Below, piece by piece: positions 10,351 to 59,379 of a stretch of 64,000 bases of DNA. The notes beneath the pieces are model-generated. The model was given only the letters and a program-made list of their open reading frames with translations. It was not told the origin of the DNA and ran no database searches. Made by a program: the position numbers and the translations under genes. Source of the stretch: Mobula hypostoma (Eukaryota); contig NC_086097.1 of NCBI RefSeq assembly GCF_963921235.1, forward strand, positions 147,996,001 through 148,060,000, in the 5' to 3' direction. Positions within the stretch are counted from its first letter, which is position 1; each line of letters starts with the position of its first letter.

Positions 10351-10837
10351 CAATGGGTGTTACATGTTTTTTTTTTCCAAATCTTATGTTACTTTTCTAT
10401 TTTCTTTGAATCACTGGTTGACTTGTTTGCACCTTTAAACTGCTAATGAGGTACCACGTCATTGAGTAGCCTAGGCATTGCAGGACACCAGCAAGTTCAT
10501 TGTTTGTTTCTCTCCTCCATCTCAGAATTCTCGATTTTCCCCCTGGGTGTATTGATTTCCCTTTTCAGTTGTGACCTGCTGTGTGTGTTACAAAGGGGAA
10601 ATGTTGCTACTCTTTAACGGTAGTTTTTCAGCAATTCCTTCAAGCACAGGACTGTTCTCCAGTGCTCTTATGCCTCTGTATTTATTTGAGGTGAACCATA
10701 TTCATCTTAATATTTTGCCATGATTCAGATGTTGGCAGTTTTGCAGGCACTAATTGCCCCCAATAGATGGATTCATCAGGGACTAGGCTTGACTGCTTGC
10801 AGTATCCCTTCAGTTTTTGATTTGACTTTAATTTGCA

Positions 10838-12170: not shown

Positions 12171-12752
12171 TGTTAAAATGATTATCCTTATCAACTGATG
12201 GGATCTGTATTGATGGCATGTAAAACTAAATTTTTCATGTGGCCATATTAAACCAATTCTATTTGTAGGTAGATTGGGTCCAATAATATATAAGCACCTT
12301 ATCTGACTCAGGCTCGAGATTCAAACTCCATATCTAAGTATCAATATTGTCTTATCCTACCTCTGTGATGTGATCTGCATCAGTTCCTGCTTTACTCTTC
12401 CTATTACAACCTATACTGATGTTCCAGCTAAGTGCCTTATAGTTTCATTTACATATATCTACATTTTTTCCATATGTATCTTGGGTTATGCTTTTAATCT
12501 GATGATTTTTCCTGTATTTTCTTTAAGTCATACTTAACAATGTCAAAGAATGAATATAGATGTGATTCCCTCTTTATGCCTCAGCAAAGAACTTGGAAAG
12601 AAAGTATTGCTTTGTATATATAGTTAACCAGTTTGGCATGCAGACACATAGGTAAAACACGAGCCTCCCCAAAAATTGTATCATTAATTCTCAGAGCTGT
12701 AGAGGAAGCTGCTTGATCCTGCTGATGTTAAACCATGCTTTATTACCATCTC

Positions 12753-13061
12753 GTGTGGGCTCGTGGCCAAGTGGTTAAGGCATTGGACTAGCAACCTGAA
12801 GGTCGTGAGTTCGAGCCCCAGCTGAGGCAGCATGTTGTGTCCTTGAGCAAGGCACTTAATCACACATTGCTCTGCGACGACACTGGTGCCAAGCTGTATG
12901 GGTCCTAATGCCCTTCCCTTGGACAACATTGGTGTCGTGAAGAGGGGAGACTTGCAGCATGGGCAACTGCTGGTCATCCATACAACCTTGCCCAGGCCTG
13001 CGCCCTGGAGAGTGAAGACTTTCCAGGCGCAGATGCATGGCCTCGCAAGACTAACAGATAC
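12753..13061 (+). mobile_element. tRNA-derived SINE
   Basis: A box TGGCCAAGTGG and B box GAGTTCGAGCC in a tRNA-like head, then a CORE-like GTGTCCTTGAGCAAGGCACTTAA. 15-bp TSD with 2 mismatches (ctttattaccatctc 12738-12752 / ctttatcactatctc 13062-13076). Confidence 0.85.
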
Positions 13062-13720
13062 CTTTATCACTATCTCATATTTTATTGGCATTTTTTGGTC
13101 AGAAGTTGGATGAATGATTTTGTCCTATTAAAAGAAATAAGTATTTCAGTTTTCTTCATCTTGAACATGGCTTCAGAGATTGTTCTATTTTCCAAAATCC
13201 TTTTCAAAAATGCATCTTACAGAGTCTTACATATCCTATGCGGCCCCAAAGTGCTGCATATTATTTTTGAGGCGTATTCACTGATTTCATTCTACCAAAC
13301 GTATAAATTAATTGAAAAGTGAAATACTTCAGATGCTGAAAACCTCAAATAAAGAAATTCTGGAGATGCACATTAGCTCAGGCAGCATCTATGGAAGCAG
13401 AATCTTTCAGATTGATCCTCTTTCTTCAAAACCTTAAAACTAAGTGTAAGAGAGCAACAAAGAATGCATACCTCAAATGAAATGTTAACCTCTTTCTAAT
13501 AAACTTAGGAATAGAACAGTTAAGAGAAAGTGTGGCTGGAGGTGTTCAGAGTCTTGAAAGGTTTGAACTGACTGAATAGAGTAAAACTAGTGCCACTGGC
13601 GGAAATGCGAGGCATCAAAAGGCGACATTAAAGTGACCTGCAAAATATAAAAGGTCACATGAAGAAAAATTTTTTGCACAATAGAAAGGTGGTGGAAGCA
13701 TATTAAATAATAATATCAAA

Positions 13721-16700: not shown

Positions 16701-17110
16701 TTCAGCTAATTGATTAACCTGGTCTTTAGTACTCGGCCAGTTATCTCGTCTGAGCCAGATGCTTTTCTCCTAAAGAATGCCCTCACTTCATCCTCAGAGA
16801 CTGAAATCACAGAGTCATCAGTTGATATGAGAGCATGTGAAGGTGTCTCCATGTTTTGATGATCAAAGTGAGCATAAGAGGCATTGAACTCATCTGGGAG
16901 CAAAGTATTGTTGTCACCTATGTCACTTGGTTTCACTTTGTAGGAGATGATAGCATTCATGGCCCTGCCACAGTTATTGAGTATCCTTCAGTGGTTCTAG
17001 TTTGAGTTTAGAATTGCCACTTCATATGTGGAGTTGGTTTTCCGGAGGTCATACCTGGATCTCTTGAATTTTACAGGGTCGCTAGACCTGAATGACACTG
17101 ACCTGGTGAA
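13721..17110 (-). mobile_element. Decayed Rex1/Babar-clade LINE (RT and 3'UTR), split by a CR1 insertion at 14076-15600
   Basis: Minus ORFs: MKYFESLVMKHINSCL..NLDPMQFA..KRSTADVI...[44 protein letters not shown]...[15 protein letters not shown]. Host sequence resumes across the CR1 (gatgctgctttc | tgcgacagca). Confidence 0.8.
14076..15600 (-). mobile_element. Young 5'-truncated CR1 LINE with an uninterrupted 475-aa RT segment
   Basis: ORF 14166..15593: [54 protein letters not shown]. Confidence 0.96.
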
Positions 17111-18037
17111 TATTTCAAATGGAATTGGATTATTGCTTGAAGGAAAGAAATTTATTGGCCATTGGGCATCCTTGCTTAATATTACCAATAGTTCTTTATA
17201 TATCCTGAATATTATAGCTTTAAATAACTCTTGTTTTGACGTCAATGTTGATCTCTTAATCAGCTTTTGCCCTTATTTTTTTCTGGAACTATATCAGATG
17301 CTGATACTTGACTCCTTTAGCATCTTTTTGCAATCTTAGAAATTTCAAACCTCAGTCCCAGACTACGAATTAATGTTGTATTTAACTACCAATCATTGTC
17401 TAGGCTATGTCCTTTCACCAGGTTTCTCTCCAGTTTATGAAATATATCCAAATAAAAGAGATTAGGCAGAGGATTGCTGATTGATGTGTAATTTGATGTG
17501 TCATCTTGGCAATTATACGAATCATGGGATATTCACCAAGAATCTCTGGCTTGGCTCTATTGATGGCCTCACTGGAAGCATTAATCTGCTACATTTTCAG
17601 GATTTGTTCTTCTATATTTTTGGCTACCAATCCTTGTTCCTTGAAAGATTTTTTTCTAAATTAAACCTGTATGTTTCTCAAAATATATTTATAGAAAGCA
17701 TTTGCAGATGTGAATGTAAGGTGCTATTTTACCACAGAAGACTTATTTCAAATATAGTAGATTGTAGTTAATTGGATCACATCAAGATCAGTACATTTTG
17801 GCCCAATTAAGTGGATGTCCCAATTAGCCGAAGATTCATAAAAATAGTTAAAAAGGTATTTTTTAAAAACTACCATTTAACTGAGTAATAAGTTATGTAT
17901 TTAAATGAAAAACAGAACAAATTAGAACACTTTCAATACTACTGCATTGCTATTAAACTGTGTTAGTTCCTAATAGTTATCAACAAGAAGAATCATTCTA
18001 GTGTATGCTGCGGTGTTCTTTTGATTAACTGTAAATG

Positions 18038-20277
18038 AACATAGAATAGTACAGCACAGTACAGGCCCTTCGGCCCACAATGTTGTGCCGACCCTCAAAC
18101 ACTGCCTCCCATATAAGTCCCCAACTTAAATTCCTCCATATACCTGTCTAGTAGTCTCTTAAACTTCACGAGTCTATCTGCCTCCACCACTGACTCGGGC
18201 AGTGCATTCCACGCACCAACCACTCCCTGAGTAGAAAACCTTCCTCTAATATCCCCCTTGAACTTCCCACCCCTTACCTTAAAGCCATGTCCTCTTGTAT
18301 TGAGCAGCAGTGCCCTGGGGAAGAGGCGCTGGCTATCCACTCTATCTATTCCTCTTATTATCTTGTACACCTCTATCATGTCTCCTCTCATCCTCCTTCT
18401 CTCCAAAGAGTACAGCCCTAGCTTCCTTAATCTCTGATCATAATGCATACTCTCTAAACCAGGCAGCATCCTGGTAAATCTTCTCTGTACCCTTTCCAAT
18501 GCTTCCACATCCTTCCTATAGTGAGGCGACCAGAACTGGACACAGTACTCCAAGTGTGGCCTAACCAGAGTTTTATAGAGCTGCATCATCACATCGCAAC
18601 TCTTAAACTCTATCCCTCGACTTATGAAAGCTAGCACCCCATAAGCTTTCTTAACTACCCTATCCACCTGTGAGGCAACTTTCAGGGATCTGTGGACATG
18701 TACCCCCAGATCCCTTTGCTCCTCCACACTACCAAGTACCCTACCATTTACTTTGAACTCTGCCTTGGAGTTTGTCCTTCCAAAGCGTACCACCTCACAC
18801 TTCTCAGGGTTGAACTCTATCTGCCACTTCTCAGCCTACTTCTGCATCCTATCAATGTCTCTCTGCAATCTCTGACAATCCTCCACACTATCTACAACAC
18901 CACCAACCTTTGTGTCGTCTGCCAACCCACCCTCCTATCCCCACATCCAAGTCGTTAATAAAAATCACGAAAAGTAGAGGTCCCAGAACAGATCCTTGTG
19001 GGACACCACTAGTCACAATCCTCCAATCCGAATGTACCCCCTCCACCACGACCCTCTGCCTTCTGCAGGCAAGCCAATTCTGAATCCACCTAGCCAAACT
19101 TTCCTGCATCCCATGCCTTCTGACTTTCTGAATAAGCCTACCGTGTGGAACCTTGTCAAATACCTTACTAAAATCCATATAGATCACATCACCTGCACCA
19201 GCCTCATCTATACGTCTGGTCACCACCTCAAAGAACTCTATCAGGCTTGTTAGACACAATCTGCCCTTCACAAAGCCATGTTGACTGTCCCTGATCGGAC
19301 CATGATTCTCTAAATGCCTATAAATCCTATCTCTAAGAATCTTTTCCAACAGCTTTCTCACCACTGACGTAAGGCTCACTGGTCTATAATTACCCGGACT
19401 ATCCCTACTACCTTTTTTGAACAAAGGGACAACATTCACCTCCCTCCAATCCTCCGGTACTATTCCCGTGGACAACGAGGACATAAAGATCCTAGCCAGA
19501 GGCTCAGCAATCTCTTCCCTCGCCTCGTGGAGCAGCCTGGGGAATATTCCGTCAGGCCCTGGGGACTTATCCGTCCTAATGTATTTTAACACCTCCAGCA
19601 CCTCCTCTCCCTTAATATCAACATGCTCCAGAACATCAACCTCACTCATATTGTCCTCACCGTCATCAAGTTCACTCTCATTGGTAAATACCGAAGAGAA
19701 GTATTTATTGAGGACCTTGCTCACTTCCACAGCCTCCCACCTTTAGCTCTAATCGGTCCTACCTTCACTCCTGTCATCCTTTTTTTCTTCACATAATTGA
19801 AGAATGCTTTGGAGTTTTCCTTTACCCTACTCGCCAAGGCCTTCTCATGACCGCTTCTTGCTCTTCTCAGCCCCTTCTTAAGCTCCTTTCTTGCTTCCCT
19901 ATATTCCTCAATAGAGCCATCTGATCCTTGCTTCCTAAACCTCATGTACGCTGCCTTCTTCCACCTGACTAGATTTTCCACCTCACTTGTCACCCATGGT
20001 TCCTTCACCCTACCATTCTTTATCTTCCTCACCGGGACAAATTTATCCCTAACATCCTGCAAGAGATCTCTAAACATCGACCACATGTCCATAGTACATT
20101 TCCCTGCAAAAACATCATCCCAATTCACACCCGCAAGTTCTAGCCTTATAGCCTCATAATTTGCCCTTCTCCAATTAAAAATTTCCCTGTCCTCTCTGAT
20201 TCTGTTCTTTTCCATGATAATGCTAAAGGCCAGGGAGCAGTGGTCACTGTCCCCCAGATGCTCACCCACTGAGAGAT
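18038..20277 (-). mobile_element. 5'-truncated CR1 LINE (end of endonuclease, linker, RT, 3'UTR)
   Basis: ORFs 19721..20317, 18888..19730, 18095..18793: [40 protein letters not shown]; small frameshifting deletions. Confidence 0.96.
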
Positions 20278-20422: not shown

Positions 20423-20619
20423 ACAACACACACAAAAAATGCTAGTGAACGCAGCAGGTCAAGCAGTTCACTATCCCTTCTTTCAGTTCGTCCTGACGAA
20501 GGGTCCCGGCCCAAAACATCGACTGTACCTCTTCCTATAGATGCTGCCTGACCTATTGCGTTCACCAGCATTTTTTGTGTGTGTTGCTTGAATTTCCAGC
20601 ATCTGCAGATTTCCTCGTG
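20423..20619 (+). mobile_element. Short PLE terminal-repeat insertion with a 5' inverted segment
   Basis: Matches the 3' end of the PLE at 40533-44190; 20423-20466 is an inverted copy of about 20543-20586. 13-bp TSD taactttattgga / taacttcattgga. Confidence 0.88.
20489..20524 (+). ncRNA. Minimal hammerhead ribozyme motif, core mutated (GAAAC-GUC to AAAAC-AUC)
   Basis: cgtc-CTGACGA-agggtcccggccc-AAAAC-ATC-gact; both changes look like CpG decay. Confidence 0.6.
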
Positions 20620-22053: not shown

Positions 22054-22293
22054 ACACACATCAAAGTTGCTGGTGAACGCAGCAGGCCAGGCAGCATCTG
22101 TAGGAAGCGGTGCAGTCAACGTTTCAGGCCGAGACCCTTCGTCAGGACTAACTGAAGGAAGAGTGAGTAAGGGATTTGAAAGTTGGAGGGGGAGGGGGAG
22201 ATCCAAAATGATAGGAGAAGACAGGAGGGGGAGGGATAGAGCCAAGAGCTGGACAGGTGATAGGCAAAAGGGGATACGAGAGGATCATGGGAC
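22054..22293 (-). mobile_element. Short PLE terminal-repeat insertion (240 bp)
   Basis: Nearly identical to 40566-40801; perfect 15-bp TSD cataaaatttgagtt at 22039-22053 and 22294-22308. Confidence 0.92.
22114..22149 (-). ncRNA. Minimal type I hammerhead ribozyme motif (GUU triplet)
   Basis: Minus strand AGTC-CTGACGA-AGGGTCTCGGCCT-GAAAC-GTT-GACT. Confidence 0.75.
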
Positions 22294-32544: not shown

Positions 32545-35500
32545 AAGCTGAAGTAGGTAATAGAGGCAGCAGTTAGGGCAGTTGAGTGCTCCGTTTGCAG
32601 TATGTGGGAAGTCAGGGCGAGCACAATTGTCCCTGATGACTACACCTGCAAAAGGTGCATCCAGCTGCAGCTCCTGACAAACTGAGTTAGGGAGCTGGAG
32701 CTGGATGAACTTTGGATCATTCGGGAGGCAGAGGCAGAAATTAACAGGAGTTACAGAGAGATAGTCACCCCTGAGAGTCAGGAGACAGGTAGCTAGATGA
32801 CTGTCAGGAGAGGGAAGGGGAATAGACAGAATGAGCAGAGCACCCCTGTGGCTGTTCCCACCAATAATAAGTATATCATTTTGGATACTGTTGATGGGGA
32901 CGACCTACCAGGGACAAGTTACAGTGGTTGCATCTCCAGCACCGAGACTGGACCGTCAGCTCAGAAGGGAAGGAGGGAAAAGAGGAGAGCAGTAGTGATA
33001 GGGGATTCGATAGTTAGGGGGACAGATAAGAGGTTCTGTGGAAGAGATCGAGAATCCCGGATGGTCTGTTGCCTCCCTGGTGCCAAGGTCTGCGATATCT
33101 CAAATCGAATTCTCAGTATTCTCAAGAGGGATGGTGAGCAGCCAGATGTTGTGGTCCATGTAGAGACCAATGACATGGGTAGGAAGAGTGAAAGGTGAGT
33201 TCAGGGAGTTAGGCGCCAAGTTAAAGGACAGGACCTCCAGGATAGCAATCTCAGGATTGCTACCGGTGCCACGTGCAGGTGGGTTTAGAAATAGTAAGAT
33301 AGCGCAGATCAACACGTGGCTGAAGACATGGTGCAGGAGGGAGGGCTCCAGATTTATAGATAATTGGGCAGTTTTCCGGGGAAGGTGGGACCTGTTCCAG
33401 CAGGACGGTTTACATCTGAACTGGAGGGGGACAAATATTCTTGCAGGTGGGTTTGCTAGAGAAGCTGCAGTGGATTTAAACTAGATACAAGGGGGGAGGG
33501 CAACTAGAGTGTAGGAACAGATGTAGGGGAGAAGGAAGAAAAAGAAGGCAGTAAAGTTGTTTGCACCGTTAGTGATAAACAGAGAGTAAGAGGTGGAAAA
33601 TTTCTTAAATGCATTTACTTTAATGCTAGGAGCATTGTAAGAAAGGTGGATGAGCTTAGAGCATGGATTGATACCTGGAAGTATGATGTTGAAGCTATTA
33701 GTGAAACATGGTTGCAGGAGGGGTATGATTGGCAACTAAACATTCCTAGATTTCGTTGCTTCAGGTGTGATAGAATCGGAGGGACAAGATGGGGAGGTGT
33801 TGCATTGCTTGTCAGAGAAAATATTACAGCTGTGCTCTGGCAGGATAGGTTATAGGGCTCATCTAGGGAGTCTATTTGGGTGGAATTGAGGAATGGGAAA
33901 GGTGTTGTAACACTTATTATAAGGGGTGTATTATAGACCACCTAATGGGGAGCGAGAATGGGAAGAGCAAATTTGTAAGGAGATAGATATTTGTAGTAAG
34001 CGCAAGGTTGTCATTGTGGGAGATTTTAATTTTCCACACATAGACTGGGAAACCCATACTGTAAAAGAGCTGGATGGTTTGGAGTTTGTAAAATGTGTGC
34101 AGGATAGTTTTTTGCAGCAATACATAGAGGTACCAACTAGAGAAGGGGCAGTATTGGATCTCCTGTTAGGGAATGTGATAGGTCAGGTGACAGAGGTATG
34201 TGTTGGGGAGCACTTCGGGTCCATTGATCACAATGCCATTAGTTTCAATATAATTAAATGGAGAAGGATAAGTCTGGACCCAGGGTTGAAATTTTTGATT
34301 GGAGAAAGACTAACTTTAAAGAGATGCGAAAGGATTTAGAAGGAGTGGAATGGGACAAATTGTTTTATGGGAAGGATATAGAGAAATGGGGGTCATTTAA
34401 AGGTGAAATTTTGAGGGTACAGAATCTTTATGTTCCTGTTAGTTTGAAAGTTTGAGAAAGCCAAGGTTTTCAAGGGATATTGGAAACTTGGTTCGGAAAA
34501 AGAGAGATATCTACAATAAATATAGGCAGCATGGAGTAAATGAGGTGCTCAAGGAATATAATGAATGTAAAAACAATCTTAAGAAAGAAATTAGAAAAGC
34601 TAAAAGAAGATACAAGGTTGCTTTGGCAAGTAAGGTGAAAATAAATCCAAAGGGTTTCTACAGTTATACTAATAGCAAAAGGATAGTGAGGAACAAAATT
34701 GGTCCCTTAGGGAATCAGAATGGACAGCTATGTGTGGAACCAAAAGAGATGGGGGAGATTTTGATCAATTTCTTTTCTTTGGTATTCACTAAAGAGAAGG
34801 ATATTGAATTGTGTAAGGTAAGGGAAACAGGTAGGGAAGTTATGGAAACTATGATGATTAAAGAAGAGGAAGTATTGGCGCTTTTAAGGAATATAGAAGT
34901 GGATAAGTCTCCGGGTCCTGACAGGATATTCCCTAGGACCTTGAGGGAAGTTAGGTCAAAAATTCCAGGGGCTCTGACAGAAATATTTCAAATGTCATTA
35001 GAAATGGGGATAGTGCCGGAGGGTTGGCGTATATATAATTATCTGGATAGACAGGATCTGATTAGGAACAGTCAACATGGATTTATGCGTGGAAGGTCGT
35101 GTTTGACAAATCTTATTGAATTTTTTGAGGAGGTTACTAGGAAAGTTGACATGGGTAAAGCGGTGGATGTGGTCTATATAGACTTCAGTAAGGCCTTTGA
35201 CAAGGTTCCACACGGAAGGTTAGTTAGGAAGGTTCAATGGTTAGGTATTAATATTGAAGTAGTAAAATGGATTCAACAGTGGCTGGATGGGAGACACCAG
35301 AGAGTAGTGGTGGATAACTGTTTGTCAGATTGGAGGACGGTGTGTAGCAGTGTGCCTCAGGGATCTGTACTGGGTCTAATGTTGTTTGTCATTTACATTA
35401 ATGATCTGGATGATGGGGTGGTAAATTGGATTAGTAAGTATGCAGATGGTACTAAGATAGGTGGCGTTTTGGATAATGAAGTAGGTTTTCAAAGCTTACA

Positions 35501-36362
35501 GGGAGATTTAGACCAGTTAGAAGAGTGGGCTGAAAGTTGGCAAATGCAGTTTAATGCTGATAAGTGTGAGGTGCTACATTTTGGTAGGACTAATAAAAAT
35601 AGGACATACATGGTAAATGGTAGGGCATTGAAGAATGCAGTAGAACAGAGGGATCTAGGAATAATGGTGCATAGTTCCCTGAAGGTGGAATCTCATGTTG
35701 TGGATAGGGTGGTGAAGAAAGCTTTTGGTATGCTGGCCTTTATAAATCAGAGCATTGAGTATAGGAGTTGGAATGTAATGTTGAAATTGTACAAGGCATT
35801 GGTAAGTCCAAATTTGGAGTATTGTGTACAGTTCTGGTCACCGAATTATAGAAAAGATGTCAACAAAATAGAGAGAGTACAGAGAAGATTTACTAGAATG
35901 TTACCTGGGTTTCAGCACCTAAGTTACAGAGAAAGGTTGAACAAGTTGGGTCTTTATTCTTCGGAGCATAGAAGGTTGAGGGGGGACTTGATAAATGTAC
36001 TTAAAATTATGAAGGGGATGGATAGAGTTGGCGTAGATAGGCTTTTTACATTGAGAGTAGGGGAGATTCAAACAAGAGGACATGAGTTGAGAATTGGGGG
36101 GCAAAAGTTTAGGGGTAACACGAGGGGGAACTTCTTTACTCAGAGAGTGGTAGCTGTGTGGAACGAGCTTCCAGCAGAAGTGGTAGAGGCAGGTTCGATA
36201 TTGTCATTTAAAGTAAAATTGGATAGCTATATGGAATGGAAAGGAATGGAGGGTTATGGGCTGAGTGCAGGTCGGTGGGACTAGGTGAGAGTAAGCATTC
36301 GGCATGGACTAGAAGGGCCGAGATGGCCTGTTTCTATGCTGTAATTGTTATATTTGTTATAT
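32545..36362 (+). mobile_element. Near full-length CR1 LINE: ORF1 (zinc finger and SGNH esterase) and ORF2 (APE and RT), pseudogenised
   Basis: ORF1 from about 32560: VECSVCSMWEV...YTCKRCIQLQLL, RAVVIGDSIVRGTD, DGLHLNWRG. ORF2 pieces: YFNARSIVRKVDEL, ISETWL, YYRPPN, IVGDFNFP, 610-aa ORF 34452..36284. Tail (TTGTTATA)-like repeats. Several stops, frameshifts and a deletion near 35030. Confidence 0.96.
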
Positions 36363-39198: not shown

Positions 39199-39340
39199 TA
39201 GTATACCATAACCATTAATTCAAATATCAACATTAACTGCACATACACAAGGAAATCTGCAGATGCTGGAATTTCAAGCAACACACATCAAAGTTGCTGG
39301 TAAACGCAGCAGGCCAGGCAGCATCTCCAGGAAGAGGTAC

Positions 39341-39376
39341 AGTCAACGTATCGGGCCGAAACCCTTCATCAGGACT
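39341..39376 (-). ncRNA. Minimal hammerhead motif, core mutated (GAAAC to GAUAC)
   Basis: Minus strand AGTC-CTGATGA-AGGGTTTCGGCCC-GATAC-GTT-GACT. Confidence 0.6.
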
Positions 39377-40166
39377 AACTGAAAGAAGAGCTAGTGAGAG
39401 ATTTGAAAGTGGGAGGGGGAGATCCGAAATGATAAGAGAAGACAGGAGGGGGAGGGATGGAGCCAAGAGCTGGACAGTTGATTGGCAAAAGGGATATGAG
39501 AGGATCATGGGACAGGAGGCCTAGGGAGAAAGAAAAAGGGGAGGGGGGGAAAAACCCAGAGGATGGGCAAGGGGTATAGTGAGAGGGACAGAGGGAGAAA
39601 AAGGAGAAAGAAAAAGAATGTGTGTATATAAATAAAATAACAGATGGGGTATGAGGGGGAAGTGGGGCATTAACAGAAGTTTTGAAGTCAATGTTCATGC
39701 CATCAGGTTGGAGGCTACCCAGATAGAATATAAGGTGTTGTTCCTCCAACCTGAGTGTGGCTTCATCTTGACAGTAGAGGAGGCCGTGGATAGACATATC
39801 GGAATGGGATCTCCCAGTAGCCTCCAACCTGATGGCATGAACATCGATTTCTCAAACTTCCACTAATGCCCCTCCTCCCCCTCGTACCCCATCTGTTATT
39901 ATTTATTTATATACGCACATTCTTTTTCTCCCTGTCCTTTTTCTCCCTCTGTCTCTCTCACTATACCCCTTGCCCATCCTCTGGGCTTCCCCTCTCCCCC
40001 TTTTTTTTCTCCCTAGGCCTCCTGTCCCATGATCCTCTCATATCCCTTTTTGCCAATCAACTGTCCAGCTCTTGGCTCCATCCCTCCCCCTCCTGTCTTC
40101 TCCTATCATTTTGGATCTCCCCTCCCCCTCCCAATTTCAAATCTCTTACTAGCTCTTCTTTCAGTT

Positions 40167-40202
40167 AGTCCTGACGAAGGGTCTCGGCCCGAAACGTCGA
40201 CT
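40167..40202 (+). ncRNA. Minimal type I hammerhead ribozyme, intact core, sense to ZC3H3
   Basis: AGTC-CTGACGA-AGGGTCTCGGCCC-GAAAC-GTC-GACT. Stem I AGUC/GACU, stem II GGGU/GCCC, palindromic ACGU in place of stem III; predicted cleavage after C40198. Confidence 0.85.
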
Positions 40203-40627
40203 GTACCTCTTCCTAGAGATGCTGCCTGGCCTGCTGTGTTCACCAGCAACTTTTATGTGTGTTGCTTGAAATTCCATCATCTTTCCTCGTGTTTACAACT
40301 TTTCTTAAATAAGGGGCCCAAAACTGCTCATAATACTCCATGTTTGGTCTGACCAACGCCTGTGGCATGGTAGCACTATGGTTAGCACAATGTTTTACAG
40401 CATCACTGACTTGAGTTCAATTCCTGCTGCTGCCTGTGAGGAATTTATATGTTCTCCTCATGATTGCATCAGTTTCCTCCAGGTGCTTCGGTTTCCTCCC
40501 ACAGTCCAAAAACATGCAGGTTAATAGGTTAACAACAGGAATTCTGCAGATGCTGGAAATTCAAGCAACACACATCAAAGTTGCTGGTGAACGCAGCAGG
40601 CCAAGCAGCATCTATAGGAAGAGGCGC

Positions 40628-40663
40628 AGTCGACGTTTCAGGCCGAGACCCTTCGTCAGGACT
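40628..40663 (-). ncRNA. Minimal type I hammerhead ribozyme in the PLE 3' repeat, intact core
   Basis: Minus strand AGTC-CTGACGA-AGGGTCTCGGCCT-GAAAC-GTC-GACT; predicted cleavage after the C at 40632. Confidence 0.85.
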
Positions 40664-40949
40664 AACTGAAGGAAGAGTGAATAAGGGATTTGAAAGGGGG
40701 AGGGGGAGATGCAAAATGATAGGGGAAGACAGGAGGGGGAGGGATAGAGCCGAGAGCTGGACAGGTGATAGGCAAAAGGGGATACGAGAGGATCATGGGA
40801 CAGGAGGTCCGGGAAGAAAGACGGGGGGGGGTGACCCAGAGGATGGGCAAGAGGTATATTCAGAGGGACAGAGGGAGAAAAAGGAGAGTGAGAGAAAGAA
40901 TGTGTGCATAAAAATGAGTAACAGATGGGGTACGAGGGGGAGGTGGGGC

Positions 40950-43900
40950 CTAGCGGAAGTTAGAGAAGTCAATGTTCATGCCATCAGGTTGGAGGCTACC
41001 CAGACGGAATATAAGGTGTTGTTCCTCCAACCTGAGTGTGGCTTCATCTTTACAGTAGAGGAGGCCGTGGATAGACATGTCAGAATGGGAATGGGATGTG
41101 GAATTAAAATGTGTGGCCACTGGGAGATCCTGCTTTCTCTGGCGGACAGAGCGTAGATGTTCAGCAAAGCGGTCTCCCAGTCTGCGTCGGGTCTCACCAA
41201 TATATAAAAGGCCACATCGGGAGCACCGGACGCAGTATATCACCCCAGTCGACTCACAGGTGAAGTGATGCCTCACCTGGAAGGACTGTTTGGGGCCCTG
41301 AATGGTGGTAAGGGAAGAAGTGTAAGGGCATGTGTAGCACTTGTTCCGCTTACACGGATAAGTTCCAGGAGGGAGATCAGTGGGGAGGGATGGGGGGGAC
41401 GAATGGACAAGGGAGTTGTGTAGGGAGCGATCCCTGCGGAATGCAGAGAGAGGGCGGGAGGGAAAGATGTGCTTAGTGGTGGGATCCCGTTGGAGGTGGC
41501 GGAAGTTACGGAGAATAATATGTTGGACCCGGAGGCTGGTGGGGTGGTAGGTGAGGACCAGGGGAACCCTATTCCTAGTGGGGTGGCGGGAGGATGGAGT
41601 GAGAGCAGATGTACGTGAAATGGGGGAGATGCGTTTAAGAGCAGAGTTGATAGTGGAGGAAGGGAAGCCCCTTTCTTTAAAAAATGAAGACATCTCCCTC
41701 GTCCTAGAATGAAAAGACTTATCCTGAGAGCAGATGCGGCGGAGACGGAGGAATTGCGAAAAGGGGATGGCGTTTTTGCAAGAGACAGGGTGAGAAGAGG
41801 AATAGTCCAGATAGCTGTGAGAGTCAGTAGGCTTATAGTAGACATCAGTGGATAAGCTGTCTCCAGAGACAGAGACAGAAAGATCTAGAAAGGGGAGGGA
41901 GGTGTCGGAAATGGACCAGGTAAACTTGAGGGCAGGGTGAAAGTTGGAGGCAAAGTTAATAAAGTCAACGAGTTCTGCATGCGTGCAGGAAGCAGCGCCA
42001 ATGCAGTCGTCGATGTAGCGAAGGAAAAGTGGAGGACAGATACCAGAATAGGCTCGGAACATAGATTGTTCCACAAACCCAACAAAAAGGCAGGCATAGC
42101 TAGGACCCATACGGGTGCCCATAGCTACACCTTTAGTTTGGAGGAAATGGGAGGAGCAAAAGGAGAAATCATTAAGAGTAAGGACTAATTCCGCTAGACG
42201 GAGCAGAGTGGTGGTAGAGGGGAACTGATTAGGTCTGGAATCCAAAAAGAAGCGTAGAGCTTTGAGACCTTCCTGATGGGGGATGCAAGTATATAAGGAC
42301 TGGACATCCATGGTGAAAATAAAGCGGTGGGGGCCAGGGAACTTAAAATCATCGAAAAGTTTAAGAGCGTGAGAAGTGTCACGAACATAGGTCGGAAGGG
42401 ATTGAACAAGGGGTGATAAAACAGTGTCGAGGTATGCAGAAACGAGTTCGGTGGGGCAGGAGCAAGCTGAGACAATAGGTCGGCCAGGACAGGCAGGTTT
42501 GTGGATCTTGGGTAGGAGGTAGAAACGGGAAGTGCGGGGTGTGGGAACTATAAGGTTGGTAGCAGTGGATGGGAGATCCCCTGAGCGGATAAAGTCGTTG
42601 ATAGTGTGGGAGACAATGGCCTGGTGCTCCTTAGTGGGGTCACGATCGATGGTAAATAAGAGGAGGTATCCGCGAGTTGTCGCTGTGCCTCGGCAAGGTA
42701 GAGGTCAGTACGCCAGACTACAACAGCACCTCCCTTATCAGTGGGTTTAATAATAATGTTAAGATTAGTGCGGAGGGAGTGGAGAGCAGAGCGTTCTGAA
42801 GGAGTGAGGTTGGAATGGGGACAAGGTGCGGTGAAGTCGAGACTGTTGATGTCCCGTCGGCAGTTGGCAATAAAGAGATCCAGAGCAGGCAGAAGACCAG
42901 AGCGGGGTGTCCATGAAGAAGAGGAGGGTTGAAGACGGGAGAAGGGGTCATCGGTGGGGGTGGAAGAGTCCTTGCCGAAGAAGTAGGCTCGGAGACGGAG
43001 ACGGCGGAAGAAAAGTTCCGCATCGTGGCGAACACGGAACTCGCTGAGGTGTGGGCGAAGGGGGACAAACGTGAGGCCCTTACTGAGAACAGAGCGTTCT
43101 GCCTCCGACAGTTGATGGTCGGAGGGGATGGTAAAGACCCGGCACGGATGAGAGCTGGGATCAGAGGGGGGAGGGGGGAGGCTGGGGGTGTCAGTGGAGA
43201 GGGGAGGGTTGGGGTGAGAGAAAGATGGAGCCTCTGAGGGCCCAGGAGCTGACGGTGGGATCTGAGGAAGACGGGGCTGCGGAGTGGTGGTGGGGGAAGG
43301 GGAGACGGGAGTCACAACAGCAGCACATAAAGACCCGGCCTGGTGTTCAAGGCTGGAGTTGCAGTTGGTGGTTGCGTAATCACTTCGAATGTGTCCATGG
43401 TCGTTGCTGGAGTCCGGGTTTTGAATATGTCCTGAGGTGTTGGAGCCGCCGAGATCAATGGCAGGGGCCGCAATTGAAAGTTCATGCCTGCTAGCGTCGG
43501 GGCCGGCAGGCTCTGGAGTCCGTAGATGTAAGATCTTGCGATCTTTGCCTAACATGACAAAGTCAAAAAAATGGCGATTGCAGGCGTGAGTCCGACGGAG
43601 GATGAAATAACGGGTAGGACCATTACAGACGGCGAAGAAAGTGTCCCGAAGGTGTGGAAGGGTCTGGGATAGGGACACCAAGTACCTCCTCATGGCGGAG
43701 AGCGTCGCCTTCAGAGCTTGACGGGAGAAGCGGCGAGAGGCAGAGTCAATAAAATGTGAGTACCTGGGATCCTCAGAAGGTCCAAATTGAGAGGCTTGGA
43801 AACGAATCCTAAAGCCAACTGGAGTAAGTTGGTGACGGAGGCACGTTCCAAGAAAGGATACATGGCTGTGATAGCGAGTTTGAGTCAAAGTGTGGTCGAA

Positions 43901-43999
43901 AAGTTGAAGAGCCGAAGAAATTACAGATGGGGAGCAGTGAGAGATGGTTTCACTGAACTCCCGTCGAAGAGAGGATCTAAACTTCTTCGGTGTAGGCAT
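40950..43999 (-). pseudogene. PLE polyprotein: N-terminal domain, reverse transcriptase, Cys linker and GIY-YIG endonuclease; about 1016 aa if one frameshift near 42650 is repaired
   Basis: ATG at 43999 (MPTPKKF), LSKGLTFVP, IIKPTDKGGAVVV. After the frameshift I translated an open frame DRDPTKEH...FYLLPKIHK...GRPIVS...FTMDVQSLYT, continuing GVAMGT, FLRYIDD, LPFLD, CKRNKCYTC, GVIYCVRCSRCGLLYIGET, RFAEH. Confidence 0.93.
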
Positions 44000-44133
44000 C
44001 ACCGGAAGAGGCTTCGCAGTAGTGAATTTAAACGCAAACAACAGGAATTCTGCAGATGCTGGAAATTCAAGCAACACACATCAAAGTTGCTGGTGAACGC
44101 AGCAGGCCAAGCAGCATCTATAGGAAGAGGCGC

Positions 44134-44169
44134 AGTTGACGTTTCAGGCCGAGACCCTTCGTCAGGACT
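44134..44169 (-). ncRNA. Minimal type I hammerhead ribozyme in the PLE 5' repeat (intact core, one stem I mismatch)
   Basis: Minus strand AGTC-CTGACGA-AGGGTCTCGGCCT-GAAAC-GTC-AACT; predicted cleavage after the C at 44138. Confidence 0.8.
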
Positions 44170-44429
44170 AACTGAAGGAAGAGTGAGTAACAGGTTAATA
44201 GGTTAATTGGTCGTTGTCAGTTGTCCCGTGATTAGGCTATGGTTAAAACAAGTGTTGCGTGGCAATGCGACTCAAAGGCCAGAACAGCCAATTTTGCACT
44301 GTATCTCAATAAATTAAGAAAATTATAAAGCCTCAGCATTACATTATTGCTCTTATATTTTGGTCCTCTCAAAATGAATGCTAACATAGTTTGTAACTTG
44401 CAACATGTTGCCCATTATCATTCTATATA

Positions 44430-45037
44430 TAGTGATTCCAGTTAATTGGAACATACCAGGCCCAATTAAGTTACTGCCGCAATTAGCCAAAAGTTTCATA
44501 GAAATAGTTAAAAACTCATATAAAAAGACAAACTACTATTTAACAATGTAACAAATTATCTATTTAAATGAAATTCAGTATAAATTAGAACACTATCAAT
44601 GCTACTACTGTACCATAAATTTGTGTACTAGTTCCTAATAGTTATCAATAGAGAAATTTATCCATTGTACACTGGTCAGTTCTTTTGATTGACTGTAAAT
44701 GAACAAAATCAACATTGATTCCCCATGTAGATAATGGACCGCCATCATCAGAAACTTCTGTTTTCCTTGTAACATTCAAGATGATTGTTGATACCTTCAA
44801 ATCCTTCATAGTTCATAACTTGTTGAAGTAGTAATACTATTTCACATTCACTCCTGGACATTTCTGGCTTCTCCAAAACAGAATACTTAAAACTGCAGTG
44901 AACAAAACAGTTCTGAATTGTCTTTCTGCTAGTTAGAAACTGTTTGGCAATAGTCTCCAGCCCCAGTTTATCAGTCTTGTGTCCCAAATAAGCAGCTGCC
45001 CCAACTAACTAATGGCTCAATTAACCAGAATCACTGT
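44430..45037. mobile_element. Second, internally deleted copy of the Tigger/pogo-like element
   Basis: Ends tagtgattccagttaattgg / caattaaccagaatcactg; internal similarity to 17755-18040 and 20860-21299. Confidence 0.75.
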
Positions 45038-45861
45038 CTAAACATTTAAATTGGTCAAAGTAGATTTTAGCCTTTGATCCGTTGACTGTTATCCCACAAT
45101 GAACCTCTAGCAGCTACCATTAACCATGATGCTAACTCAAATCCTTAACCATACTACTTCCTTATACTTAAAGATTTATTATTTTTACATTACCTATTTA
45201 GATTTTCAATTGTCATTTATACAGAGGTTTTCATTCTGCTATGGATCAGCCATCTGAACACCTTGATCAGAATCCAGCTTATTATACTTACTTCCAGAGT
45301 TTCAATTATTCTATACATAAACTATCTGACATTCTCAATTATATTCTAGCTTGTAATGAGCATCCAAGTGTTCAATATTCTAGTTATAAACAACCTCAAT
45401 TACTTATTTAAATTTTAGTGTGTAACTCATTCATAGATGTCTATTTTAATAGAAAGCATCCCATAATTCCTAGCTGTTGCTGCTCATTGATTTCTAGAAT
45501 TTTTTTTCATTCCCTTTTAATGGAAACACTTCTGTTTTTAACCCCTACTGATTTTAAGCTTACTATAAATTAGAAGTGGCCCCAGCAGAAAACCGCCGGA
45601 GTTTTTTTTTTAAAAAGCAACAAGTTGTTCTTGTGAAACTGGAAAAATTTAATTAACAGTTCTCACTGTGCTAGGTGAACCCCACTATTCAGCATTTGTG
45701 ATGATTTATGATCTCTAAGGTGACTGTCAGTTTTTATGGGCTGAATTGATCCTGCAGGAGTTTGATATCTGAAATTGAGAACATAGAAAAGTAATGGAGC
45801 AAGACACATCAAAGTTGCTGGTGAACGCAGCAGGCCAGGCAGCATCTATAGGAAGAGGTAC

Positions 45862-45897
45862 AGTCGACGTTTCAGGCCGAGACCCTTCGTCAGGACT
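45862..45897 (-). ncRNA. Minimal type I hammerhead ribozyme, intact core
   Basis: Minus strand AGTC-CTGACGA-AGGGTCTCGGCCT-GAAAC-GTC-GACT. Confidence 0.85.
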
Positions 45898-47398
45898 AAC
45901 TGAAAGAAGAGCTAGTAAGAGATTTGAAAGTGGGAGGGGGAAGGGGAGATCCAAAATGATAGGAGAAGACAGGAGGGGCAGGGATGGAGCCAAGAGCTGG
46001 ACAGTTGATTGGCAAAAGGGATATGAGAGGATCATGGGACAGGAGGCCTAAGGAGAAAGAAAAGGGGGAGGGGGGGAAACCCAGAGGATGGGCAAGAGGT
46101 ATGTTGAGAGGGACAGAGGAAGAAAAAGGAGAGAGAAAAAAAGAATGTAGTCTGGATGTAGGGTGTAAGTTGAATCAAGAGTTAAAATTGGCATGTCGCA
46201 AAGGTAATGCTACAGTTGTTATGGGGGATTTCAAAATGCAGATAGACTGGAGGAATCAAGTTGGTACTGGACCCCAAGAAAGGGAGTTTGTGGAGTCCCT
46301 CCGAGATGGATTCTTAAAACAGCTTGTACTGGAGCCTACCAGAGAGAACGCAATTCTAGATTTAGTGTTGTGCAATGAACCAGATTTGATCAGGGACCTT
46401 GAGGTAAAGGAGGTAGTGACCATAATATGGTAAGTTTTAATCTACAATTTGAGAGGGAGAAGGGAAACTCGGAAGTGTCAGTATTACAGTTGAACAAAGG
46501 GAACTATGGTGCTATGAGGGAGGAGCTGGCCAACGTTCAATGGAACAATGCCCTAGCAGGGATGACAGTGGAGAACAGCAATGGCAAGTGTTTCTGGGAA
46601 TAATGCGGAAGGTGCAGGATCAATTCATTCCAAAGAGGAAGAAAGATCCTAAGGGGAGTAAGGGGAGGCCGTGGCTGACAAGGGAAGTAATGGACAGTAT
46701 AAAATAAAAGAGAGGAAGTATATTATAGCAACGATGAGTGGGACACCGGAGTATTGGGAAACTTTTAAAGAGCAACAGAAGGTAACTAAAAAGGCAAAAC
46801 GCGGAGAAAAAATGAGGTACGAAGGTAAACTAGCCAATAATATAAAGGAGGATAGTAAAAGCTTCTTTAGGTATGTGAAAAGGAAAAAAACAGTTAGGCC
46901 CAAAATTAGGCCCTTGAAGACAGAAACGGGTGAATTTATTATGGGGAACAAGGAAATGGCAGACGAGTTGATCAGGTACTTTTAGGGAAGACACAGACAA
47001 TCTCCCAGATATAATAGTGGCCAAAGGACCTAGGGTAATGGATGAACTGAAGGAAATTTATATTAGGCAGGAAATGGTGTTGGATAGACTGTTGAGTCTG
47101 AAGGCTGGTATTCCGTTTGGGTATCCTCCAACCTGATGACATGAACATTGACTTCTCAAACTTCCGCTAATGCCCCACCTCCGCCTCGTACCCCATCCGT
47201 TAGTTATTTATATACCCACATTCTTGTTCTCTCTCTCCTTTTTCTCCCTAGGTCTCCTGTCCCATGATCCTCTCATATCCCTTTTGCCAATCACCTGTCC
47301 AGCTCTTGGCTCCATCCCTCCCCCTCCTGTCTTCTCCTATCATTTTGGATCTCCCCCCCCTCCCACTTTCAAATCTCTTACTAGCTCTTCTTTCGGTT

Positions 47399-47434
47399 GG
47401 TCGTGACGAAGGGTCTCAGCCCGAAACGTCAACT
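47399..47434 (+). ncRNA. Minimal hammerhead motif, core mutated (CUGA to GUGA)
   Basis: ggtc-GTGACGA-agggtctcagccc-GAAAC-GTC-aact. Confidence 0.6.
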
Positions 47435-48357
47435 GTACCTCTTCCTAGAGATGCTGCCTGGCCTGCTGCGTTCACCAGCAGCTTTTATGTGTGTTGCTTG
47501 AAATTCCAGCATCTGCAGATTTCCTCGTGTTTGTGAAAAGTAATGGACTCCACTGTGAAATTCCACTTTTGTAATCATCTAATATTTAGGATGGCAAAAC
47601 ATTCTTTAACCAGGCTTGCGCTTCCAAATTTGTCTAATCATTCTCAGCAGTGTATTGTTTCAGTCATTTCTTCAAAGCCCACAGAGCACAAAAAAATAGG
47701 AATAAAGCACAATTGCTGCTCAAATCTGCCCATTGAACCTCACATCATGACTAACAGTATCAAGTTGGCCTGCAGGCTTCAGGCTCAGAGATGTCTGCAA
47801 CTGTTTTACTTTTACAATATACTGCCACCTATCAATGATCTGTGGAAGGAAGTATATTGGTTCTATGCATTTTGAGAATCACTAAGATCCCCCAGCCTAA
47901 ATTGGCAGCCATGTTTCCATGTTGTCGGGCCCTTGGAAGGAGCAAATCAACTCTTGCATTTGTTTTTTATTCACAGTCTCTATTGCCTCCAGTTTTGATC
48001 TCTAAAGTTTACTCCCAGTTTGATGTATTTCTCTCTTCTTCTCGATATCATTTTTTAGCATCTTCTTGACATCTTAAAATTGTCAGTTTTGTTGTGGTTC
48101 TTTTGAGTTAATTGACTTAAAGCCCAATAGTTTAAATTGTAATTATCTGGAAATCAACCTACTAAATGCAGGGTTTTGCTAGGAAAGAATACAGAGGAAG
48201 GGAATTTGTGCAATGTTTTGCATTCTGCTTTTGTATGTTTGCTGACAGAACGTCAGGAATTTATCCTCCAAATGTGAAGGCACTCCTTTATGAGTTTTGG
48301 ATATATATGAATAATCTCAAGACTATTTTATGACATGTAACAAATAATCTTTTTCAG

Positions 48358-57672: not shown

Positions 57673-58775
57673 AACAGAACATAGAACAGTACAGGCCCTT
57701 CGGCCCACAATGTTGTGCCGACCCTTAAACCCTACCTCCCATATAACCCTCCACCTTAAATTCCTCCATATGCCTGTCTAGCAGTCACTTAAATTTCACT
57801 AGTGTATCTTCCTCCACCACTGACTCAGGCAGTGCATTCCACGCACCAACCACTCTGTGAGTAAAAAGCCTTCTTCTAATATCCCCCTTGAACTTCCCAC
57901 CCCTTACCTTAAAGCCATGTCCTCTTGTACTGAGCAGTGGTGCCCTGGGGAAGAGTCGCTGGCTGTCCACTCTATCTATTCCTCTTAATATCTTGTGTAC
58001 CTCTATCATGTCTCCTCTCATCCTTCTCTCCAAAGAGTAAAGCCCTAGCTCCCTTAATCTCTGATCATAATGCATACTCTCTAAACCAGGCAGCATACTG
58101 GTAAATCTCCTCTGTACCCTTTCCAATGCTTCCACATCCTCCTTATAGTGAGATGACCAGAACTGGACACAGTACTCCAAGTGTGGCCTAACCAGAGTTT
58201 TGTAGAGCTGCATCATTACCCCGCGGCTCTTAAACTCTATCCCTCGACTTATGAAGGCTAACACCCCATAAACTTTCTTAACTACCCTATCTACCTGTGA
58301 GGCAACTTTCAGGGATCTATGGGCATGTACCCCCAGATCCCTCTGCTCCTCCACACTACCAAGTATCCTGCCATTTACTTTGTACTCTGCCTTGGAGTTT
58401 GTCCTTCCAAAGTGTACCACCTCACACTTCTCTGAGTTGACCTCCATCTGCCATTTCCGCATCCTATCAATGTCTCTGCAATCTTCAACAACCCTCTACA
58501 CTATCCACAACACCACCAACCTTTGTGTCATCTGCAAACTTGCCAACCCACCCTTCTACCCCCACATCCAGGTCATTAATAAAAATTATGAAAAGCAGAG
58601 GTCCCAGAACCGACCCTTGTGGGACACCACTAGTCACATCCCTCCAATCTGAATGTACTCCCTCCACCACAACCCTCTGTTTTCTGCAGACGAGCCAGTT
58701 CTGAATCCACCTGGCCAAACTTCCCTGGATCCCGCGCCTTCGGACTTTCTGAGTAAGCCTACTGTGTGGAACCTT
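57673..58775 (-). mobile_element. 5'-truncated CR1 LINE
   Basis: ORFs 58485..58838 and 57785..58462: [33 protein letters not shown]; same subfamily as 18038-20277. Confidence 0.95.
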
Positions 58776-59379
58776 GAAGATTCCCATTGCGTGGATCTTT
58801 TTGTTAGTTGGGTCAGTGATGGTCAGAAATGCATTCATAATCTGGGTTCAGAATATTAAAGTGTAATGGTAGGAAGGTACAGGAAGCTGGGAAGAGTTGA
58901 AGGAATGGTTTTATTAATTTGTGATGATCTTGGCTCAGTAGAGAGTGATGACCCTATCTCTGGAAACCAGACTGTTTCCATGAAGGTGAGGAATAATAAG
59001 GCAAGAAGTCATTTGTAGGAGTGATGTCGAAGCCTAATTGTAACCAAATGACAAAATGGAACATAAAGGGAACTTAAAGTAATAATATATGCAGTTTGGA
59101 AATATCAAACAGGAAGAGTTCAAAGTATGTTTCAAGATAATTTATATGACCAGCACCATATTGGCCAGTCAGCCCAATAAGAAAGCAGACTGTATGATGA
59201 GATGTCATTGATTTACAATGGGATCATTGATATACATTTAAGAACAATGATTATATTATGATATATTTACTTTGAAGGAAAGAAGAATAAGTCCAAGATG
59301 AGAGAAGTGGTTTGAGGTTACAAAAGTGGTCTGAGGTTACAGAATGAGTTCAGCTGGTAAGTTAGTCAGTGACAGAGCA

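What the first reader, a model, noticed from the sequence alone, without database searches (positions are those of the whole stretch)
40533..44190. Penelope-like element whose ORF is bracketed by two tandem hammerhead ribozymes, predicting a 3,506-nt self-excised RNA
Seen: both terminal repeats carry AGUC-CUGACGA-AGGGUCUCGGCCU-GAAAC-GUC-(G/A)ACU in the element's sense orientation (44134-44169 and 40628-40663), with only the palindrome ACGU where stem III should be. The predicted cleavage sites (44138 and 40632) are 3,506 nt apart and enclose the whole RT/GIY-YIG ORF. Established: minimal type I hammerheads occur in PLE terminal repeats and work as dimers through the palindromic stem III. Inference: one read-through transcript supplies both halves, releasing a unit-length, possibly circularisable RNA as in retrozymes. 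The general phenomenon is known; whether this family has been described I cannot tell.
Basis: partly seen in the sequence, partly recalled or inferred. Interest (0 to 1): 0.75.

Follow-up and report, generated by a model that had tools for sequence, protein, structure and literature searches.

The report
Broken Penelope-like retrotransposon with twin hammerheads
This is a near-complete but frameshifted Penelope-like jumping gene, likely from a ray genome, with the small hammerhead self-cutting RNA motif in both end repeats, an arrangement published in 2014; its ends run past both predicted cut sites, so it was likely copied from an uncut or circular RNA, not from the proposed excised linear piece.

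Summary
Two minimal type I hammerhead motifs lie on the minus strand, with predicted cuts at 44138 and 40632, 3,506 nt apart. They sit in 152-nt terminal repeats of a 3,658-nt Penelope-like element (PLE) with a Neptune/Nematis-type linker and a perfect 16-bp target-site duplication.

Corrections:
- The ORF is split by a frameshift near 42650.
- The 5' motif has lost the stem I pair next to its cut.
- The insertion starts 53 nt before the 5' cut and ends 99 nt after the 3' cut.
- None of 8 family 3' ends in the window lies at the cut (three at +64 to +68, five at +99 to +105).

A doubly cut linear RNA therefore cannot have been the direct template. An uncut transcript (favoured) or a circle fits, and DNA cannot separate them. 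The motif is under selection across families: 14 of 29 distant relatives carry the core, with compensatory stem I changes.

Arrangement, dimer model and circle idea were all published in 2014 (PMC4209133). The scan noted this motif before, here and in other genomes. Cleavage and expression were not tested. New member of a known kind.

The parts
40533..44190 (-). Whole insertion, 3,658 nt = one 3,506-nt unit plus 152 nt of terminal redundancy (partial tandem)
44039..44190 (-). 5' pseudo-LTR, 152 nt; begins 53 nt upstream of the predicted 5' cut
   Evidence: 150/152 identical to the 3' repeat
44134..44169 (-). 5' minimal type I hammerhead motif; predicted cut after 44138; A at 1.1 breaks the C2.1-G1.1 pair
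42653..43999 (-). 5' part of the single PLE ORF (first long-frame ATG at 43999, 139 nt after the cut): N-terminal domain, proline-rich spacer, DKG motif near 42739-42731
   Evidence: tblastn to full-length homologs P0010, P0011, P0027
42650..42656 (-). Frameshift that splits the ORF; this copy is one base shorter than about 90% of laid depth
40950..42653 (-). 3' part of the ORF: RT (GVAMG at 42131, RYIDD at 42020), CX4CxxC linker (41354), GIY-YIG endonuclease with CxxC between GIY and YIG (41246), stop codon ending at 40950
   Evidence: (RVT_1 E 2.6e-4, GIY-YIG E 4.8e-4, both below Pfam's cut-offs)
40533..40684 (-). Part of the 3' end duplicated as the 3' pseudo-LTR
40628..40663 (-). 3' minimal type I hammerhead motif; predicted cut after 40632; stem I intact
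40533..40567 (-). About 35-nt tail between the two 3'-end classes of the family (+64 to +68 and +99 to +105 from the cut); inferred reverse-transcription start sites
   Evidence: compare PMC11167929
44191..44206 (-). Target-site duplication, upstream copy (16 of 16 identical)
40517..40532 (-). Target-site duplication, downstream copy; its first two bases also match the element's continuation, so the duplication is 14-16 bp

Best explanation
This is a near-full-length, frameshifted Penelope-like retrotransposon copy with a minimal hammerhead motif in each 152-nt terminal repeat, likely inserted by target-primed reverse transcription that started inside an uncut RNA about 100 nt past the 3' hammerhead. 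SHOWN by sequence or calls: the repeats, the motifs, the 16-bp duplication, the RT/GIY-YIG frame with one frameshift, ends at -53 and +99 from the cuts, and cross-family conservation of the motif. INFERRED: an active parent copy was transcribed from within or upstream of its 5' repeat. Its protein nicked an AATT site, primed at the distal tail site, and copied through both uncut hammerheads until it stopped 53 nt past the second one (a truncation point or the transcript start). In active relatives the two half-ribozymes would pair through ACGU/ACGU and exchange stem I strands, and would cut tandem transcripts slowly and with protein help; that cutting is probably not needed for insertion. This copy is predicted to be dead in cis and its 5' cut impaired. 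The identity part is near certain; the confidence given refers to the uncut-template mechanism.
For: Ends overshoot both cuts, and the sequence is continuous across the 5' cut. 0 of 8 family 3' ends in the window lie at the cut. They fall in two classes about 35 nt apart, matching the 30-40 bp PLE tail and the two internal start sites shown for the anole element. A 35%-identity relative, L045, has the same anatomy: identical motifs 3,424 nt apart in 300-nt repeats ending 100 nt after the cut. Summed contig depth in DNA run X1 falls from 7.0 million at the 3' end to 63-95 thousand over the ORF start, as 5' truncation predicts (not a copy number). [quoted passage not shown] The computed active dimer fold (-9.6 kcal/mol for 5'+3', -12.9 for 3'+3') is far less stable than the free folds (-33.2, -35.9), and monomers bury the core in a hairpin.
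Against: The motif is plainly selected: 14 of 29 eligible relatives carry the core in sense against 2 of 29 in antisense, and stem I forms 40 of 56 pairs against 23.7 +/- 3.9 when partners are swapped. So cleavage matters at some step, which this model leaves vague. A circle predicts exactly the same DNA. The anole data come from the Poseidon clade, in vitro, with short templates. The folding program models three-way junctions and protein help poorly.
Confidence: 0.55

Rival explanations
1. Excision and circle model (first reader; Cervera and de la Pena 2014): the two hammerheads of one read-through transcript cut as a dimer, the 3,506-nt unit is ligated, and reverse transcription starts at the tail and runs 1.04 times round the circle, giving unit plus 152 nt.
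For: Explains the seamless more-than-unit structure and the near-identical repeats, whose family-diagnostic variants are shared by both ends. A single motif on a circle would not re-cut. Stem I covaries across families. Short metazoan retrozymes do form circles, and RtcB ligates them in vitro (PMC7229834, passages).
Against: No PLE-length circle is reported in the passages and sections I read; a five-term search found only the 2014 proposal. Cleavage was dispensable in vitro and no RNA-seq ends were seen at the cut for the anole element. Minimal dimers cleave weakly even when adjacent, and these two are 3.5 kb apart. The G-to-A change at the junction fits CpG decay: 4 of 8 window copies are changed at that dinucleotide.
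Confidence: 0.25
2. Only the 5' hammerhead is cut (in cis or in trans). Reverse transcription reaches that end, then jumps to the 100-nt redundant segment at the 3' end of the same or another RNA, as in retroviral strand transfer, and continues 53 nt further.
For: The 100 nt between cut and tail are present at both ends and would give the homology needed; the result would also be seamless.
Against: No window copy has a 5' end at the cut, though stalled jumps should leave some. The dimer geometry forms both active sites together. I read no report of this route for PLEs.
Confidence: 0.12
3. The hammerheads are passengers or have a non-cleaving role (protein-binding or dimerisation signal), and no unit RNA is ever released.
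For: Naiad PLEs lack canonical hammerheads and still reach very high copy numbers; the authors raise parasitism (PMC8557442, passages). 15 of 29 eligible relatives showed no core within 600 nt of the ORF end (decayed or truncated copies are among them in unknown number).
Against: The catalytic letters, including the C3-G8 to U3-A8 swap, and stem I pairing are kept across families at 32-53% protein identity. The anole motif does cleave with protein, and cleavage needs C3 and G8.
Confidence: 0.08

Closest known systems
Minimal hammerheads (min-HHR) in the pLTRs of metazoan PLEs (Cervera and de la Pena 2014, PMC4209133)
   Same: Type I, 4-5 bp helix I, extra nucleotide between 9 and 10.1, palindromic 15.2-16.2 with no helix III, one motif per flanking repeat about 3 kb apart, dimer and circle model; reported there for Xena, Poseidon and Neptune PLEs of fishes.
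   Different: Helix II is 4 bp with two G.U pairs, against 7-8 bp in the Schistosoma families; this copy has G10.1.U11.1 and one broken 1.1 pair. Sharks and rays are not named in the parts I read (parts 1-2 of 4; supplements not opened).
Neptune (and Nematis) clade EN+ PLEs (Craig et al. 2021, PMC8557442)
   Same: C-terminal GIY-YIG with CCHH, CX2-5CxxC linker, DKG motif, partial tandem with pLTR, inverted truncated partners, 30-40 bp tail.
   Different: No tree against named references was possible, so Neptune and Nematis are not separated. This copy did not insert in a microsatellite.
Poseidon element of Anolis carolinensis, PAc (Frangieh et al. 2024, PMC11167929)
   Same: Internal start of reverse transcription at two sites downstream of the hammerhead; AT-rich target containing ATT.
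   Different: The Poseidon clade lacks the linker finger; in PAc the ORF starts inside the hammerhead, here the first long-frame ATG is 139 nt after the cut.
Metazoan non-LTR retrozymes (PMC7229834; bioRxiv 10.64898/2026.07.22.740005)
   Same: Type I hammerheads in head-to-tail repeats that could release a unit RNA; proposed to derive from PLE repeats.
   Different: Retrozymes are short (51-972 bp consensus in the preprint), non-coding and non-autonomous, with circles shown by experiment; this is a 3.5-kb coding unit with no RNA evidence.

Membership tests
EN+ Penelope-like element | Single ORF with RT and C-terminal GIY-YIG endonuclease | tested here: met
   RVT_1 and GIY-YIG hits, both weak and under Pfam cut-offs; homologs of 889-955 aa align along both frames; ORF is split by one frameshift
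EN+ Penelope-like element | CCHH motif with two cysteines between GIY and YIG; catalytic R, H, E, N | tested here: met
   GVIYCVRCSRCGLLYIG; C477, R495, H499, H515, E544 invariant and N560 nearly so in 29 aligned proteins
EN+ Penelope-like element | Partial tandem forming pseudo-LTRs, 5' truncation, inverted partners, optional 30-40 bp tail | tested here: met
EN+ Penelope-like element | RT groups with telomerase and other PLE RTs in a tree | not tested
   No named reference set was available; PDB profile search gave 0 hits
Neptune/Nematis clades | CX2-5CxxC linker between RT and endonuclease | tested here: met
   CKRNKCYTC at 41354; C439 and C442 invariant, C434 nearly so
Neptune clade proper | Phylogenetic placement apart from Nematis | not tested
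   Assignment rests on the linker and on Neptune being reported in vertebrates
Minimal type I hammerhead (min-HHR) | CUGANGA, GAAA and NUH core with helices I and II | tested here: met
   in the 5' copy pair 1.1-2.1 is broken
Minimal type I hammerhead (min-HHR) | Extra nucleotide after A9 and palindromic 15.1-16.1 | tested here: met
   A after A9 and ACGU in both copies
Minimal type I hammerhead (min-HHR) | G10.1-C11.1 pair | tested here: inconclusive
   G.U in both repeats of this copy; G-C in 4 of 8 window copies and 11 of 14 family-level examples; probably CpG decay
Minimal type I hammerhead (min-HHR) | Covariation of helices across families | tested here: met
   Pair 2.1-1.1: AU 6, UA 4, CG 3, unpaired 1; stem I 40 of 56 pairs, 0 of 5000 partner swaps reach it (related sequences are not independent)
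Minimal type I hammerhead (min-HHR) | Self-cleavage as a dimer at the NUH site | not testable with these tools
   Needs a cleavage assay
Rfam hammerhead families | Match to an Rfam hammerhead model | tested here: not met
   No hammerhead family among 7 matches at E up to 10 in 39500-45500
Retrozyme | Short, non-coding, non-autonomous unit | tested here: not met
   3.5-kb unit with RT/endonuclease ORF
Retrozyme | Accumulates as unit-length linear or circular RNA | not testable with these tools
   No raw RNA reads were offered; contigs cannot show ends

The most novel reading that the evidence does not exclude
This insertion is the DNA fossil of reverse transcription 1.04 times round a 3,506-nt protein-coding circular RNA that was cut out by a long-range hammerhead dimer and re-ligated. 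The very abundant ray family would then be an autonomous retrotransposon with a viroid-like circular intermediate, and its intact members would be a good system in which to show a PLE circle for the first time.
Probability: 0.25. Interest if true: 0.6.

Novelty: new member of a known kind. Interest (0 to 1): 0.2.

Why it matters
What hammerheads do in Penelope-like elements is still called unclear in print (PMC8557442), and the circle model proposed in 2014 was not shown for a full PLE in anything I read. This locus does not settle the question. It gives a clean specimen with both ends and the target duplication defined, rules out the doubly cut linear RNA as its direct template, and points to a very abundant family in which RNA ends and circles could be sought. 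As a discovery it is ordinary.

Tried and rejected
- Rfam scan of 39500-45500: no hammerhead match; the best hit (MIR408, 30 bits against a cut-off of 64) reflects an inverted repeat.
- Own-genome search: no genome is held, so genome-wide end mapping and copy counts were not possible.
- Sequencing runs: no RNA holder listed on record; 'RNA?' rows are guesses held as contigs, and X14 is flagged probably DNA. No conclusion on expression, ends or circles. A contig in X9 joins the repeat end to the ORF start, but that junction is in the window's own DNA, so it is no sign of a circle. Raw DNA run X21 covered mainly the flanking repeat (3 of 30 bins). The end-pile table was empty, and only the best-supported rows of several tables were shown.
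- Core versus flank conservation among the 8 window copies: 3 of 88 against 38 of 608 mismatches.
- Junction-scar idea (G-to-A at the first base after the 5' cut as a ligation error): set aside, since CpG decay explains it and 4 of 8 copies are hit at that dinucleotide.
- Conserved inhibitory hairpin: strong in this family (core paired 0.70-0.84), but relatives bury the core by different pairings or not at all (0.10-0.82 in 14 loci); not claimed as a switch.
- Host gene: 61 ORFs of 105 aa or more outside the element gave only LINE-type RT, endonuclease and esterase hits and one ALKBH8_N hit on an RT-bearing ORF; short exons would be missed.
- PDB profile search: 0 hits.
- Target duplications for other copies: found for 1 of 5 tested.
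- Lunse et al. (PMC5785218) could not be opened; I saw it only as a citation in a review.
- Literature on a ray family: 0 papers for Penelope + elasmobranch + genome assembly + stingray; 1 paper for Penelope + Neptune + cartilaginous fish + transposable elements, listing only. Repbase and Dfam could not be searched, and no supplements were read; they may already hold this family.
Full report
OBSERVATION. On the minus strand both read AGUC-CUGACGA-A-GGGU-CUCG-GCCU-GAA-ACGU-C, followed by AACU in the upstream copy and GACU in the downstream copy. The predicted cuts follow 44138 and 40632, 3,506 nt apart. A strict descriptor (core, helix II, at least 3 of 4 stem I pairs, palindromic 15.1-16.1) finds 5 motifs in the 64 kb, all of this family, against a mean of 0.02 in 100 dinucleotide shuffles.

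ANATOMY. The element runs from 44190 to 40533, 3,658 nt: one 3,506-nt unit plus a 152-nt overlap whose two copies are 150/152 identical. It is flanked by a perfect 16-bp direct repeat (44206-44191 and 40532-40517). The last two bases are ambiguous by microhomology, so the duplication is 14-16 bp. The downstream flank is itself a high-copy repeat. Its other copies continue, through one copy of a similar 16-mer, into sequence matching the upstream flank (loose-end table, compared by eye), so the two flanks are halves of one interrupted repeat. The nick site reads AATT.

The ORF starts at 43999 and ends at 40950. It has DKG, GVAMG, RYIDD, a CX4CxxC linker and a GIY-CxxC-YIG endonuclease. Pfam hits to RVT_1 and GIY-YIG are weak and under the curated cut-offs, but full-length homologs of 889-955 aa align along it. 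The frame shifts near 42650-42656; about 90% of laid depth in DNA run X1 has one more base there, so the break is this copy's own. The closest named proteins are from Mobula (95%) and Hypanus (77-88%), then sharks (63-71%) and marine invertebrates (about 50%), among 1,569 hits of which 120 were listed. The host is therefore likely a ray. The linker places the element with Neptune or Nematis by the criteria in PMC8557442 (passages); I built no tree.

IS THE MOTIF SELECTED? Among 8 aligned window copies the core is not measurably better kept than the flanks (3 of 88 against 38 of 608), as expected of dead copies. Across families the answer is clear. Of 80 metagenome loci encoding relatives, 29 reached the protein's end with at least 400 nt beyond it. 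A core-only pattern with no pairing demand hit 14 of 29 in sense and 2 of 29 in antisense. In 14 distinct examples (13 relatives plus the window's 3' motif), stem I formed 40 of 56 pairs against 23.7 +/- 3.9 with partners swapped, and 0 of 5,000 swaps reached that. The pair next to the cut occurs as A-U, U-A and C-G. Related sequences are not independent, and three hits were parsed at a wrong triplet, which lowers the count. Locus L045 (35% protein identity) has the same layout: identical motifs, with the U3-A8 core swap, in 300-nt repeats 3,424 nt apart. The bracketing arrangement is generic for the class.

THIS COPY'S RIBOZYMES. In the dimer, helix III is ACGU paired with ACGU, and each stem I is formed between the two motifs. 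The upstream cut therefore depends on AACU pairing with AGUC, which puts a C.A mismatch beside the scissile bond. The computed active fold is -9.6 kcal/mol, against -12.9 for two intact copies and -33 to -36 for the free co-folds. Both motifs also have G.U at 10.1-11.1. Both changes are at CpG sites. That such changes slow cleavage is recalled knowledge, not tested here. Monomers are predicted to bury the core in an upstream hairpin.

WHAT THE ENDS SAY. The insertion begins 53 nt upstream of the 5' cut and ends 99 nt downstream of the 3' cut, with no seam. A linear RNA cut at both sites contains neither flank and cannot have templated it directly. The window holds 8 family 3' ends: five at +99 to +105 and three at +64 to +68, none at the cut (read from the alignment, a few bases uncertain). 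No 5' end lies at the cut either. L045's repeat also ends at +100. This matches the optional 30-40 bp PLE tail, which PMC11167929 showed to lie between two internal start sites of reverse transcription (parts 1-2 of 4 read). Summed contig depth in X1 drops about 75- to 110-fold from the 3' end to the ORF start, with 338,236 records laid: a very abundant, mostly 5'-truncated family.

MECHANISM. I favour priming at the distal tail site on an uncut transcript that began in or before the upstream repeat (0.55). In the anole element, ribozyme-dead RNA inserted as well as wild type, cleavage needed the protein, and no RNA-seq ends were found at the cut. A ligated circle read 1.04 times gives the same DNA and stays open (0.25). 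A 5' cut followed by strand transfer through the 100-nt redundancy (0.12) and a non-cleaving role (0.08) are less likely. The selection on the catalytic core says that cleavage matters somewhere in the cycle, most simply in trimming tandem or read-through transcripts. No RNA data able to show ends were available, so expression, cleavage and circles are untested.

COMPARISON WITH WHAT IS KNOWN. PMC4209133 (parts 1-2 of 4 read; supplements not opened) describes minimal hammerheads in both flanking repeats of PLEs, including Neptune elements of fishes and tandem motifs about 3 kb apart around the ORF. It shows low dimer cleavage and proposes excision, circularisation and more-than-unit reverse transcription. 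A review repeats the model (PMC6765202, passages). Circles are shown for short retrozymes (PMC7229834, passages). A 2026 preprint (parts 1-3 of 5) ties retrozymes to PLE repeats, includes one chondrichthyan, and saw cleavage in 1 of 9 dimer constructs. It works like, and is a member of, the EN+ PLE class with min-HHRs. It is not a retrozyme. I found no paper on this ray family in two searches, but repeat databases were not searchable. Earlier notes of this scan record the same motif family in this genome and in others; I did not verify their copy counts.

VERDICT. Real, correctly spotted and ordinary for its class: a new member of a known kind. Its added value is a well-bounded specimen whose ends exclude the linear excised RNA as direct template. 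Interest 0.2.

Noticed in passing
window 39242-39809 (-) and 39817-40282 (+): Two 5'-truncated copies of a sister subfamily joined head to head, 3' ends outward, both with long tails; the inverted arrangement typical of PLE insertions. No target duplication of 7 bp or more found.
   Followed up: partly
window 20424-20466 (-) and 20477-20615 (+): A smaller inverted pair: a 43-nt piece ending at the short-tail site (+66) beside a copy ending at the long-tail site (+100), fitting 'tail at one end only'.
   Followed up: partly
window 22054-22293 (-): Truncated copy of the same subfamily as the element, short-tail end (+64), flanked by a perfect 15-bp duplication at 22039 and 22294; supports a 15-16 bp stagger for this endonuclease.
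   Followed up: yes
window 40380-40532 and 44191-44240: The element interrupts a high-copy short repeat (resembles a SINE or LINE tail of cartilaginous fishes; that name is recalled). Its relatives are abundant in all four runs laid.
   Followed up: partly
window 45798-46148 (-), 47109-47533 (+): Further truncated family copies; the one at 47.4 kb has a broken core (C3 changed) and an internal gap.
   Followed up: partly
window 33164-36281 (+), 7182-19742 (-), 58488-58847 (-): LINE remnants: esterase-like, endonuclease and RT frames in order at 33-36 kb, and several RT fragments elsewhere; no host exon detected among 61 ORFs.
   Followed up: no
L045:1507-5230: Distant PLE relative (35% identity) with two identical hammerheads carrying the U3-A8 core swap, 300-nt repeats 3,424 nt apart, ending 100 nt after the cut.
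   Followed up: partly
L002:1005-3663 and L011:1850-4551: Relatives with inverted terminal copies of the hammerhead repeat; their ends lie about 54 and 64 nt after the cut.
   Followed up: no
window 40573-40659 (run X1) and 40620-40662 (run X14): Single contigs show a short go-back joint and an opposite-strand joint within the hammerhead region, possibly tiny tandem or fold-back copies elsewhere in those genomes.
   Followed up: no
protein P0002, P0005: Public ray gene models named as kinase-like or chitinase-domain isoforms are largely this PLE's ORF (77-87% identity), likely annotation capture of element sequence.
   Followed up: no
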